A DNA stretch of 64,000 nucleotides from Escherichia coli O157:H7 (GTDB taxonomy: Bacteria; Pseudomonadota; Gammaproteobacteria; Enterobacterales; Enterobacteriaceae), in the NCBI RefSeq assembly GCF_013167455.1, contig NZ_CP038328.1. One strand, given 5' to 3'. Made by a program: the position numbers. Shown here piece after piece: positions 21,801 through 24,800 of this stretch (position 1 is its first letter; the number at the start of each line of letters is the position of its first letter).

Positions 21801-24800
21801 TGAATATGTGGCTCCACAAACGGCGGTATAACTAAACCTTGTTCGGCATCCAGGCTGTTTTCAGTTATGGGCATCACGCCGGATTGCGCATCAATGGCGC
21901 TGATTTTTCCGTCCTGCAGATGAATCTGCCACAGCCCCTCTTTGCCTGGCAACCGGGCGTTAATAATTGTTTGTAAAGCGTTATTCGACACTGTTAGCCT
22001 CCACATGCGTCATTGCTGCTGTCGTTTTACGATTCAAAATCGGGTTAAGGATCAGATAGCTCAGCGCGCCACCTAATACCGCGTTGACCGGAACAATTCC
22101 CGGTAACCAGTGGCCTGCAGCAATCCCCAGGGCGACCGCCAGAATCGCCACCCAATTGACACTCATCATACGCGTGGTCGCAAAGTGCTCATAGCGGCGA
22201 CGGTTCATCAGATAGTCGGCAATGATCACGCCACCCACTGGAGGAATAGCTGCCGAAAGGAAGGTCAACCAGCCGACAAAATTGTTATACAGCCATAATG
22301 CACAGACCGTACCGATAATACCGTTGATTACCGAAAGGGTTTTGCTCGACATCCCGGTAATGTTGGCGAAACCTAAACCCGACGCATAGAGCGCGTTATC
22401 GTTGGTGGTCCAGATATTTAGCCCCAGCACCACAATCGCAGGCAACAGCAGGCCCTGAGCAATCATCACATCAGAGATATCCGCCATCCCCAGTGCCGCA
22501 GCGCCCGCTGCACCGAAAATAAACATCAACGAGTTGCCGAGGAAAAAGGCCACCATCGCCACCAGCACCGCCAGTTTGGCATTGCGACCAAAGCGGACAA
22601 AGTCAGCGGTGAGCGTGCCCGCACTGATAAATGACCCCACAACCAGCGCCAGCGCGACATTGAAATCTAACGGTTGTGCGGGAACGACCGCTTTTAAGGC
22701 GTCCAGGCCGCCCATGCCGTTAACGGCCAGCCACACGGAATAACCGCCAAGACAGGCGATAGCCGGAACCGCAATCAACGAAAGAACCGTCAGCGCCGAA
22801 ATGCCAAAGAAGACGGTGACGGTCATCAGTAAACCGGAAACGGCAATCAGCAAATTAATATCCAGCCCGGTTGCCTTGCCCACCGGAATAGCAAACATCG
22901 CCACACCGACGCCAAACCAGCCAACCTGGGTGCCGCCCAGCAGCAGTGAAGGCAGCCATGAGCCTTTAACACCAAACGAGAAGCGAGCAAGAAGATGAGT
23001 GGTCAGGCCGGTTTTTGCGCCAATGTAACCGAGAAATGAAGTGTAAATACCGAGGAGAAGATTACCGATGAGAACTGCGAGGAAGAAATCATGATAGCTA
23101 AGACCGGTTCCGAGAGTGCCGCCGGTCCACATACTGGCGGAAAAGAAGGTTAATCCCAGCATGACGAACGTCAATGCCAATACCCCTTTCCGCGCCGACT
23201 GCGGGACCGGCCCCTGGCTAAAGTTGTTATCTTGCGACACGAAATTCCCCCTTTTTGCTGTTTGAAACCCAAAAAATCCGCCGCATTCTATTCATCTGAA
23301 GATAAAAAGCAATCGTTTTCGTGGGGAAATATATTTTTTATATGAATGAGTGCAAAAAGGTGGGGGGAAAATTATCGGTGTAAAAACAGTGGGTAGGCAT
23401 GATAAGACGCGTCAGCGTCGCATCAGGCAACTACGCACGGTGTCGGATGCGGCGCGAGCGCCTTATCCGACCTACGGTTCAGGCCTGTAGGCATGATAAG
23501 ACGCGCCTGCGTCGTATCAGGCATCTGCGCACGGTGTCGGATGCGGCGCGAGCGCCTTATCCGACCTACGGTTCAGGCCTGTAGGCATGATAAGACGCAT
23601 CAGCGTCGCATCAGGCACTGAGCACGGTGTCGGATGCGGTGCGAGCGCCTTATCCGACCTACGGTTCAGGCCTGTAGGCATGATAAGACGCATCAGCGTC
23701 GCATCAGGCATCTGCGCATGGTGTCGGATGCGGCGCGAGCGCCTTATCCGACCTACGGTTCAGGCCTGTAGGCATGATAAGACGCGCCTGCGTCGCATCA
23801 GGCATCGGCGCATGGTGTCGAATGCGGCGCGAGCGCCTTATCCGACCTACGGTTCAGGCCTGTAGGCATGATAAGACGCATCAGCGTCGCATCAGGCATC
23901 GGCGCATGGTGTCGAATGCGGTGCGAGCGCCTTATCCGACCTACGGTTCAGGCCTGTAGGCATGATAAGACGCATCAGCGTCGCATCAGGCATCTGCGCA
24001 TGGTGTCGGATGCGGCGCGAGCGCCTTATCCGACCTACGGTTCAGGCCTGTAGGCATGATAAGACGCGCCAGCGTCGCATCAGGCATCTGCGCACAACTG
24101 TCGGATGCGCCACGCGACGCATCCGACAATACCTTACTCTTCCATCGCCTGGCGGATCTGATTCAACGACGCAGGATCATCAATGGTCGTCAGATCCCCA
24201 GGATCGCGTCCTTCGCAAATCGCCTGGATCGTGCGGCGCAGCATTTTTCCGGATCGCGTTTTTGGCAATTGCGAGACAAACCAGACGTGCGCCGGGCGGC
24301 CAAAGTTGCCAATCTGGCTGTCCACCAGCGCCATAATCGCCTTCTCTTGCGAATGCGCCACATCACGATCTTCCAGACTGTCGCTCTCTTTCGGAATGAC
24401 AAACGCCACCGCCACCTGCCCTTTCAGCGCATCTTTCACCCCAACCACCGCCACTTCGGCAACGCCCGGATGACTGGAGATACTCTCTTCAATCTCGCGC
24501 GTCCCCAGCCGATGCCCGGCAACGTTAATCACATCGTCAGTGCGCCCGAGAATAAAGTGATAACCGTCAGCGTCACGGATGCCCCAGTCAAAGGTGGCGT
24601 ACACCGGGCGGGAAAACAGCGACCAGTACGTCTTCACAAAGCGGTCGTCGTCGCCCCAGATGGTCTGAATACACCCCGGCGGCAGCGGCCCTTCCACCAC
24701 CAGCATCCCTTTCTCGTTGACGCCACACGGTTCGCCGGTGACTTCATTAAGCAACTGCACGTTATAGCCATACATCGGCACGCCGGGGCTTCCCAGACGC

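What the first reader, a model, noticed from the sequence alone, without database searches (positions are those of the whole stretch)
23394..24130. Eight-unit BIME array between codB promoter and prpE 3' end
The highly regular 93-94-bp periodicity of paired REP palindromes is unusually long for a BIME cluster. It terminates with a perfect hairpin adjacent to the prpE stop and probably acts as a terminator and insulator between prp and cod.
Basis: seen in the sequence. Interest (0 to 1): 0.35.

Follow-up and report, generated by a model that had tools for sequence, protein, structure and literature searches.

The report
Polymorphic BIME-2 REP array, prpE–codB
This is an ordinary, already well-described kind of E. 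coli repeat: a tandem array of paired REP hairpins (BIME-2) between the propionate and cytosine operons. It has eight units in O157:H7 and between one and thirteen in other strains, and it most likely dampens read-through transcription and protects the upstream mRNA end.

Summary
Window 23393-24133 holds seven complete 94-bp units (one is 93 bp). Each unit is a Y-type REP, an 11-nt linker, an inverted Z2-type REP and another 11-nt linker. An eighth unit ends in a perfect 11-bp hairpin 5 nt from the prpE stop codon. Every unit matches Rfam naRNA4, the Y+Z2 doublet of K-12 REP325, and the array contains no IHF site, so it is a BIME-2 array.

The array is not an assembly artefact. The 893-bp intergenic region is identical in Sakai and TW14359, and about 280 complete O157:H7 genomes carry the array at 99% identity or better.

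It is longer than anything in K-12 (16 palindromic units against a maximum of 12) but not exceptional for this locus. Of 5,426 complete E. coli genomes, 555 have about four or more units here. The range runs from 2 palindromic units to 26.

The terminal hairpin has no U-tract, so it is not a canonical intrinsic terminator. The closest tested analogue, REP325, attenuates its downstream gene about 8-fold in a partly Rho-dependent way and stabilises its upstream mRNA. The same role is likely here but was not tested. Interest is low.

The parts
21981..23240 (-). codB (cytosine permease), the gene downstream of the array in the direction of transcription
   Evidence: 419-aa ORF. NCBIfam NF008241 cytosine permease, E = 2.9e-209. 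Annotated as codB in the identical record.
23241..23392 (-). Non-repetitive codB 5' region: a promoter-like site (-35 TTTGCA from 23356, -10 TATATT ending at 23328), followed by a PurR-box-like ACGAAAACGATTGC and the 5'UTR
   Evidence: Promoter scan. The PurR-box resemblance is read from the sequence against my recalled consensus and is an inference. This 152-nt stretch is nearly invariant across all strains compared, whatever the array length.
23393..24049 (-). Seven complete BIME-2 units (94, 94, 93, 94, 94, 94, 94 bp). For unit 1: Y REP 23393-23429, S linker 23430-23440, Z2-type REP 23441-23475, tail-to-tail linker 23476-23486. Later units begin at 23487, 23581, 23674, 23768, 23862 and 23956.
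   Evidence: TRF, unit dissection, Rfam naRNA4 hits on the minus strand for every unit.
24050..24133 (-). Eighth, terminal unit: a Y REP (24050-24086), a linker, and a degenerate REP that lacks the GTAG tail. This Y-plus-hairpin doublet is the part present in every strain.
   Evidence: It is the only unit present in the minimal 235-bp allele (L015). The Rfam naRNA4 score is 51.4 bits, below the gathering score of 59.5.
24099..24128 (-). Perfect hairpin immediately after the prpE stop codon: an 11-bp DNA stem with an 8-nt gap, which extends to 15 bp in RNA and then starts 3 nt after the UAA
   Evidence: the repeat finder. RNA fold -27.4 kcal/mol, z = -5.1. No U-tract follows it.
24134..26020 (-). 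prpE (propionate--CoA ligase), last gene of prpBCDE. The array lies in its 3' untranslated region.
   Evidence: 628-aa ORF. TIGR02316 propion_prpE, 1304.5 bits. Annotation.

Best explanation
The feature is a BIME-2 element: a head-to-tail array of REP doublets, each an inverted Y REP plus a Z2-type REP. It sits in the 3' untranslated region of prpE, directly upstream of the codBA promoter.

**Shown.**
- The array's identity, anatomy and orientation.
- Alleles at this locus differ by whole 94-bp units, from 1 to 13 Y REPs.
- The O157:H7 allele has 8 Y REPs. It differs from an O55:H7 strain's allele, which has 6 Y REPs and lacks units 5 and 6.
- The O157:H7 allele is essentially fixed in that clone.

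**Inferred: how units are gained and lost.** Units are probably gained and lost in register, either by unequal recombination or slippage between the 94-bp repeats, or by the TnpA(REP) cleavage-and-strand-transfer amplification proposed for BIME-2.

**Inferred: what the array does.** When prpBCDE is transcribed, the array is copied into RNA in the same (naRNA4) sense as K-12 REP325. It would fold into a row of stable hairpins with three expected effects:
- they block 3'-to-5' exonucleases, protecting the prp mRNA end;
- they cause RNA polymerase to terminate progressively, in part through Rho, so that little read-through reaches codBA and codBA stays under its own promoter;
- the first hairpin starts only 3-5 nt after the stop codon, so it may also stall terminating ribosomes and lower PrpE output.

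At the DNA level the Y REPs are likely gyrase sites.

**Likelihoods.** Identity as a BIME-2 array is about 0.97. A measurable attenuator or stabiliser effect is about 0.6. That the extra length in O157:H7 is itself selected is about 0.15 or less.
For: **Anatomy.** TRF and unit dissection. Y REPs match the Y consensus at 33-35 of 36 positions. Z REPs match the Z2 consensus at 28-30 of 35 positions with the same length and a compensatory C-G to T-A stem change (consensus sequences). No IHF consensus lies in the array.

**Family match.** Rfam naRNA4 matches the full model for all eight units, six above the gathering score, on the prpE sense strand. REP325 in K-12 matches the same model on the strand of yjdM and yjdN. 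The unit layout equals REP325's except that the tail-to-tail linker is 11 nt rather than 17.

**Whole-unit alleles.** Intergenic lengths of 235, 329, 425, 612, 705, 893, 900, 994, 1079, 1173, 1268 and 1361 bp were found, with conserved flanks.

**RNA structure.** The array transcript folds at -384 kcal/mol, z = -11.5. The first hairpin folds at -27.4 kcal/mol.

**Function of the analogue.** REP325 reduces yjdN about 8-fold, gives a ladder of truncated transcripts, shows bicyclomycin sensitivity only for the full 12-hairpin array, and stabilises yjdM mRNA. REPs less than 16 nt from a stop codon down-regulate translation (Liang 2015, as cited). BIME-2 elements are enriched in gyrase cleavage sites, mostly in Y REPs. 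TnpA(REP) amplification models and strain-variable BIME-2 copy number are described.
Against: - No expression data for this locus were available, so the functional part rests wholly on analogy with one other array described in a preprint.
- That preprint stresses that REP effects depend on context, and that REPs placed after a reporter did not always stabilise it.
- The transcript is not C-rich or G-poor (C/G = 1.08) and is highly structured, so it is not a typical Rho loading site.
- No intrinsic terminator signature is present.
- Strains do well with 1 to 13 units, which argues that array length is under little constraint.
- The terminal hairpin is a degenerate REP. Whether it behaves like the REPs studied for ribosome stalling is unknown.
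Confidence: 0.65

Rival explanations
1. The array is a neutral, selfish tandem repeat. It is a by-product of REP/BIME amplification and slippage. Its length in O157:H7 is a frozen accident of clonal descent, and any effect on prp or cod expression is incidental. This rival concerns selection, not biochemistry, so it overlaps with the best explanation.
For: - Copy number ranges from 1 to 13 Y REPs among healthy isolates of many lineages.
- An IS621 insertion in the same element is tolerated in about 300 records.
- Uniformity within O157:H7 is what a young clone would show anyway.
- The literature treats BIME-2 length as highly polymorphic.
Against: - The Y-plus-hairpin doublet next to the prpE stop is kept in every allele inspected, including the minimal one.
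- REP325 shows real, length-dependent regulatory effects.
Confidence: 0.3
2. The terminal perfect hairpin is the canonical Rho-independent terminator of the prpBCDE operon, and the rest of the array is irrelevant.
For: - The hairpin is very stable and GC-rich: 15 bp in RNA, -27.4 kcal/mol.
- It sits directly after the last gene of the operon.
- It is conserved in position in all strains.
Against: - The 8 nt after the stem, GUUGUGCG, contain only 3 U.
- The terminator scan found no site in 22900-24500, where shuffled sequence gives 1.5 on average.
- Most REPs lack the poly-U tract. Only a few (REPt42, REPt127, REPt285) are coincidental intrinsic terminators.
Confidence: 0.07
3. The array works mainly at the DNA level, as a cluster of strong gyrase sites or a topological insulator that stops supercoils made by prp transcription from reaching the codBA promoter.
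For: - Gyrase cleavage sites are over-represented in BIME-2, mostly in Y REPs, and persist when transcription is blocked.
- REPs have been described as topological insulators.
- The array holds eight Y REPs.
Against: - Only a subset of BIME-2 elements is cleaved.
- This reading is compatible with the RNA-level explanation rather than exclusive of it.
Confidence: 0.25
4. The array is a set of naRNA-type small RNA genes that act with the HU protein to condense the nucleoid, as was proposed for REP325 and naRNA4.
For: Six units pass the Rfam gathering score for naRNA4.
Against: - The Rfam model in effect recognises any Y+Z2 doublet. It also hits the second array in the window, on the strand opposite to the flanking yahG and yahI genes.
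- The 2026 preprint found no effect of REP325 or naRNAs on nucleoid volume or on REP-REP contacts.
Confidence: 0.04
5. The array length is an assembly artefact, either an expansion or a collapse of a repeat.
For: - At 717 bp the array is longer than short reads.
- One O157:H7 record, EC4115, lacks exactly units 2-4.
Against: - The 893-bp intergenic region is identical in Sakai and TW14359.
- All 30 rows sampled evenly through the top 270 or so hits are 717 of 717 nt at 100% identity, from many laboratories and platforms, and 282 records are at 99% or better.
- If anything, EC4115 is the suspect record.
Confidence: 0.01

Closest known systems
REP325 of E. coli K-12 (BIME-2 array between yjdM and yjdN; source of naRNA4, Rfam RF02564)
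   Same: - Alternating inverted Y and Z2 REPs in tandem units.
- The same Y, S-linker and Z lengths.
- It lies between two co-directional genes.
- The naRNA4 sense lies on the mRNA strand of the upstream gene.
   Different: - The period is 94 bp rather than 100, because the tail-to-tail linker is 11 nt rather than 17.
- The window's array has 16 palindromic units against REP325's 12.
- The Z REPs carry GTCGGAT...ATCCGAC instead of GCCGGAT...ATCCGGC, and a CGAG loop instead of TAAA.
- Rfam scores are 58-69 bits against 95-111 for REP325.
- The window's array ends in a degenerate perfect hairpin abutting a stop codon.
- REP325 has been tested experimentally and this array has not.
The K-12 allele of the same prpE-codB BIME
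   Same: - The same site and the same flanks.
- The same unit type and the same terminal hairpin position.
   Different: - K-12 has 2 Y REPs, 1 Z REP and the terminal hairpin in a 329-bp intergenic region. The window has six more 94-bp units.
- The K-12 hairpin is imperfect, with arms GCCGGATGCA and CGCATCCGAC.
BIME-1 (also called RIP or RIB elements): one Y and one Z1 REP around the long L linker, which carries an IHF site
   Same: A pair of inverted REPs in an extragenic 3' region.
   Different: - BIME-1 is single-copy, has a long conserved linker with an IHF site, and is either present or absent among strains.
- The window's array has short linkers, no IHF consensus, tandem copies and a variable length.
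REPINs and RAYTs of Pseudomonas
   Same: Inverted REP doublets thought to be mobilised or amplified by a domesticated Y1 transposase.
   Different: REPINs are mostly dispersed single doublets. The window's feature is a local tandem amplification typical of enterobacterial BIME-2.
CRISPR array
   Same: Regularly spaced short palindromic repeats.
   Different: - The intervening 11-nt linkers are conserved, not unique spacers.
- The repeats alternate in orientation.
- It is not a CRISPR array.

Membership tests
BIME-2 | Located outside genes | tested here: met
   The array lies wholly between the prpE stop (24134) and the codB start (23240).
BIME-2 | Contains Y-type palindromic units | tested here: met
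   Eight copies match the published Y consensus at 33-35 of 36 positions (consensus).
BIME-2 | Contains Z2-type units (not Z1) that alternate with Y in inverted orientation | tested here: inconclusive
   Alternation and inversion are met. The Z units match the Z2 consensus at 28-30 of 35 positions with the same length, and the Y-S-Z doublet passes the Rfam model built on REP325. However, the loop is CGAG rather than TAAA, and I had no Z1 consensus to test against, so Z2 versus Z1 was not discriminated directly.
BIME-2 | Short S linker between heads and a short s, l or r motif between tails, with no long L linker or IHF site | tested here: met
   The linkers are 11 nt (10 in unit 3) and 11 nt. 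The S linker has the same length as in REP325. No WATCAANNNNTTR match lies in 23241-24133.
BIME-2 | Tandem copies whose number varies between strains at one locus | tested here: met
   There are 7.6 copies in the window and 1 to 13 Y REPs in other strains, always differing by whole units.
BIME-2 | Bound and cleaved by DNA gyrase | not testable with these tools
   Known for a subset of K-12 BIME-2 elements. There are no data for this locus.
Rfam RF02564 (naRNA4) | Score at or above the curated gathering score of 59.5 bits | tested here: met
   Six of eight units score 65.2-69.3 bits over model positions 1-77. Unit 6 scores 57.9 and the terminal unit 51.4. The family in effect describes a Y+Z2 doublet. 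Membership says nothing about an HU-related function.
Rho-independent (intrinsic) terminator | A GC-rich hairpin followed at once by a U-rich tract | tested here: not met
   The hairpin is present. The following 8 nt contain only 3 U, and the scan found no site.
Rho-dependent terminator | A C-rich, G-poor, poorly structured loading region, and sensitivity to bicyclomycin | tested here: not met
   C/G is 1.08 and the folding z-score is -11.5, so the composition criterion is not met. Bicyclomycin sensitivity cannot be tested here. REP325 also fails the composition criterion yet is partly Rho-dependent.
Stop-codon-proximal REP translational down-regulators (Liang, Rudd and Deutscher 2015) | A REP hairpin starting fewer than 16 nt after the stop codon | tested here: met
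   The stem starts 5 nt (DNA stem) or 3 nt (extended RNA stem) after the TAA. The criterion is as cited. Caveat: the hairpin is a degenerate REP, and ribosome stalling itself cannot be tested here.

The most novel reading that the evidence does not exclude
Array length at prpE-codB may be a selected, lineage-specific expression dial. On this reading the expansions to 16-26 palindromic units, up to twice the K-12 maximum, are kept because only long arrays engage Rho and fully uncouple codBA from propionate-induced prp transcription. The 8-unit arrays occur in O157:H7 and in an ST69-labelled lineage, with different unit sequences, and the longest arrays occur in a few other strains. The expansions could also tune PrpE output through the hairpin next to the stop codon. 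The near-complete uniformity of the 8-unit allele across about 280 O157:H7 genomes would then reflect constraint rather than clonal youth.
Probability: 0.1. Interest if true: 0.4.

Novelty: already known. Interest (0 to 1): 0.12.

Why it matters
It matters little for discovery. BIME-2 arrays, their strain-to-strain length polymorphism, their gyrase binding and, recently, their attenuator and stabiliser role are all documented.

The practical points are modest:
- Gene callers can place false ORFs in such arrays. Several 61-124-aa ORFs lie in this one, and a "YahH" ORF is annotated in the yahG–yahI gap that holds the window's other array.
- The 717-bp repeat can collapse in short-read or older assemblies, and EC4115 is a possible example.
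- The locus offers natural alleles of 1 to 13 units in otherwise near-identical flanks. That would make a convenient series for testing whether REP-array termination depends on length, as suggested for REP325.

Tried and rejected
- **Intrinsic terminator.** Rejected: the scan found no sites and there is no U-tract.
- **BIME-1 or IHF-binding element.** Rejected: no IHF consensus lies in the array.
- **CRISPR-like array.** Rejected: the linkers are conserved and the repeats alternate in orientation.
- **Coding potential.** The 61-124-aa ATG ORFs inside the array are repeat artefacts. PGAP annotates nothing there in the identical record.
- **Internal promoter.** A promoter-like match at 23520-23493 scores 9 of 12, and the region's count (2, against 0.8 +/- 0.9 in shuffles) is at chance level.
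- **Three-unit higher-order repeat.** Units 4 and 7 are identical, and the Y-loop and Z-loop variants repeat with a period of three units. Mean differences at lag 3 (3.25) are only slightly below those at lag 1 (4.7), so this is suggestive only.
- **REP annotation in K-12.** The copy of NC_000913.3 available here lists no repeat features, so I could not confirm the EcoCyc REP name for the K-12 allele.
- **Papers not held.** Liang 2015 (PMC4427526) and Bachellier 1997 (PMC1207841) are not in the library. Their claims are cited second-hand.
- **Literature on this array.** A search for prpE + codB + REP found no paper on this specific array.
- **Counting copy number from BLAST coverage.** This failed because offset alignments saturate coverage. 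I replaced it with a flank-only query and a strict E-value filter.
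Full report
**What is there**

The window is E. coli. Positions 23000-24500 are 100% identical to strains 2017C-4109 and 124, and the intergenic region is identical to O157:H7 Sakai and TW14359. 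Four genes lie on the minus strand: codA (20708-22006), codB (21981-23240), prpE (24134-26020) and prpD (26060-27511). Transcription therefore runs prpD, prpE, the array, then codB and codA.

The prpE-codB intergenic region (23241-24133) is 893 bp. Tandem Repeats Finder gives a single array at 23393-24109 with period 94, 7.6 copies, 94% matches and no indels. Unit starts are spaced 94, 94, 93, 94, 94, 94 and 94 bp apart.

Each unit has four parts (consensus sequences):
- A 37-nt Y-type REP, matching the published Y consensus at 33-35 of 36 positions.
- An 11-nt head-to-head linker.
- A 35-nt inverted Z-type REP. It matches the Z2 consensus at 28-30 of 35 positions, has the same length, and carries a compensatory C-G to T-A change in the stem.
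- An invariant 11-nt tail-to-tail linker.

The eighth unit keeps the Y REP. Its partner is a degenerate REP: a perfect 11-bp inverted repeat (24099-24109 and 24118-24128) without the GTAG tail. It ends 5 nt from the prpE TAA. The total is 16 palindromic units.

**What kind of element it is**

- Rfam RF02564 (naRNA4) is the Y+Z2 doublet of K-12 REP325. It matches every unit over the full 77-position model on the minus strand, and six units exceed the curated threshold.
- K-12 REP325 itself has a period of 100 bp and 5.8 copies. It matches the same model on the strand of its flanking genes yjdM and yjdN. Both arrays therefore have the same orientation relative to the upstream gene.
- A direct alignment of the two unit consensuses shows equal Y, S-linker and Z lengths. 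The 6-bp difference in period lies entirely in the tail-to-tail linker.
- No IHF consensus lies in the array.

These features fit the published definition of BIME-2: Y plus Z2, a short S linker, an s, l or r flanking motif, tandem copies, and a copy number that varies between strains. The one point I could not test directly is Z2 versus Z1, because the loop here (CGAG) differs from the Z2 consensus (TAAA) and no Z1 consensus was at hand.

**Is it real, and is it unusual?**

I used two searches against 5,426 complete E. coli genomes.

A flank-only query, with the array left out, showed discrete size classes among 60 evenly spaced records out of 5,233:

| Units in array | Records in the sample of 60 |
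|---|---|
| about 0.6 | about 17 |
| about 1.6 (includes K-12) | about 29 |
| about 2.6 | 3 |
| about 7.6 | 5 |
| about 8.6 | 1 |
| about 9.6 | 1 |
| flanks split | 3 |
| partial match (46% of the query) | 1 |

A pure-array query under an E-value limit of 1e-170, which only alignments of roughly four or more units can pass, matched 555 genomes. Of these, 282 were at 99% identity or better. All 30 rows sampled through that block were 717 of 717 nt at 100% identity, and they include EDL933 and many independently sequenced O157:H7 isolates. The array is therefore not an assembly artefact.

Alleles at this locus that I inspected directly:

| Strain or locus | Intergenic length (bp) | Y REPs |
|---|---|---|
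| L015 | 235 | 1 |
| K-12 | 329 | 2 |
| O104:H4 | 425 | 3 |
| O157:H7 EC4115 | 612 | 5 |
| O55:H7 DEC5D | 705 | 6 |
| window, Sakai, TW14359 | 893 | 8 |
| L018 (O15:H18, strain labelled ST69) and L006 | 900 | 8 |
| L005 | 994 | 9 |
| L004 | 1079 | 10 |
| L012 | 1173 | 11 |
| L011 | 1268 | 12 |
| L021 (TB06051, 26 palindromic units) | 1361 | 13 |

All of these differ by whole units, and the promoter-side and prpE-side flanks are conserved.

- The O55:H7 allele has units 1, 2, 3, 4, 4 and 8. It lacks the two units (5 and 6) that carry the GTCGAAT variant in O157:H7.
- The 8-unit arrays in L018 and L006 have different unit variants (ACCAGC and GCCAGC loops). They look like a separate expansion, but this is an inference.

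The K-12 literature gives 1-12 or 2-12 palindromic units per element. The window's 16 units exceed any K-12 element, but they sit in the middle of the range for this locus. Length polymorphism of BIME-2 has been known since 1997.

**How it most likely works**

The terminal hairpin folds as RNA into a 15-bp stem of -27.4 kcal/mol that starts 3 nt after the UAA. It is followed by GUUGUGCG, and the terminator scan found no site in the region. A canonical intrinsic terminator is therefore unlikely.

The whole array transcript is extremely structured: -384 kcal/mol, z = -11.5. It has no C-over-G bias: C/G = 1.08.

The best experimental guide is a 2026 preprint on REP325. It reports that:
- Removing that 12-hairpin array raised downstream yjdN about 8-fold.
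- The array is expressed as a ladder of hairpin-ended transcripts.
- Only the full-length array, not 2-4-hairpin pieces, responded to bicyclomycin.
- The array stabilised the upstream yjdM mRNA.
- No effect on nucleoid compaction was found.

By analogy, the prpE-codB array should limit read-through from prpBCDE into codBA and protect the prp 3' end. The effect may be stronger in the 16-unit O157:H7 allele than in the 4-unit K-12 allele.

REPs within 15 nt of a stop codon are reported to stall ribosomes and reduce translation (Liang 2015, as cited). The first hairpin meets the distance criterion. At the DNA level, BIME-2 elements are preferred gyrase cleavage sites that do not depend on transcription, and cleavage falls chiefly in Y REPs.

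None of these functions could be tested here. The wide range of tolerated lengths argues that the length itself is largely neutral.

Units could be gained and lost by unequal recombination or slippage. They could also arise by the TnpA(REP) cleavage-and-strand-transfer amplification shown in vitro for BIME-2.

**Verdict**

This is a textbook BIME-2 array at a known polymorphic site. The only mildly new facts are the size range at this locus (2-26 palindromic units), the fixed 16-unit allele in O157:H7, and the natural allelic series it offers for testing length-dependent REP termination. Interest is low.

Noticed in passing
L007 4410-6025, L008, and L017 1505-3025 (the same prpE-codB intergenic region in other strains): IS621, the REP-targeting IS110-family element that uses a bridge RNA, is inserted in the first Y REP of this same BIME, between GTAG and GCCTGATAAG. 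That is its natural target, ATCAGGCCTAC. About 300 of 5,233 records have split flanks at this locus, and all three that I inspected carry IS621. All eight Y REPs in the window read ATCATGCCTAC, one mismatch from the target, so this allele has no perfect IS621 target.
   Followed up: partly
window 43436-43886: A second BIME-2-like array (period 93 bp, 4.9 copies) lies between yahI (42436-43386, minus strand) and yahG (43901-45319, minus strand). It uses a shorter Y variant. It gives four Rfam naRNA4 hits above threshold, on the plus strand, which is antisense to the flanking genes. In strain 2017C-4109, PGAP annotates a 98-aa "protein YahH" in the gap between yahG and yahI, the gap that holds this array in the window. 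That ORF may be a repeat-derived false gene call, but I did not map it onto the array.
   Followed up: partly
L013 (NC_011353.1, O157:H7 EC4115), intergenic region 749-1360: EC4115 lacks exactly units 2-4 of the array: 612 bp instead of 893, with remaining units 1, 5, 6, 7 and 8. TW14359, from the same outbreak lineage by my recollection (not a tool result), and Sakai are identical to the window. This is either a very recent three-unit deletion or a repeat collapse in an early assembly.
   Followed up: partly
window 23399-24336, plus strand: A series of ATG-initiated ORFs of 61-124 aa (for example 23399-23584, 23587-23865 and 23962-24336) is generated by the repeat itself. A 323-aa ORF (24056-25027) starts in the last unit and runs antisense to prpE. 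None is annotated in the identical RefSeq record, and they look like repeat artefacts.
   Followed up: no
window 23241-23392 compared with K-12 (L003): The codB promoter and 5'UTR stretch next to the array is almost invariant across strains with 1 to 13 units. The window differs from K-12 by a single base, GGTGGGGGGAAAATT against GGTGGGGGAAAAATT. A few strains have a small GTAGTGG duplication at the array boundary.
   Followed up: no
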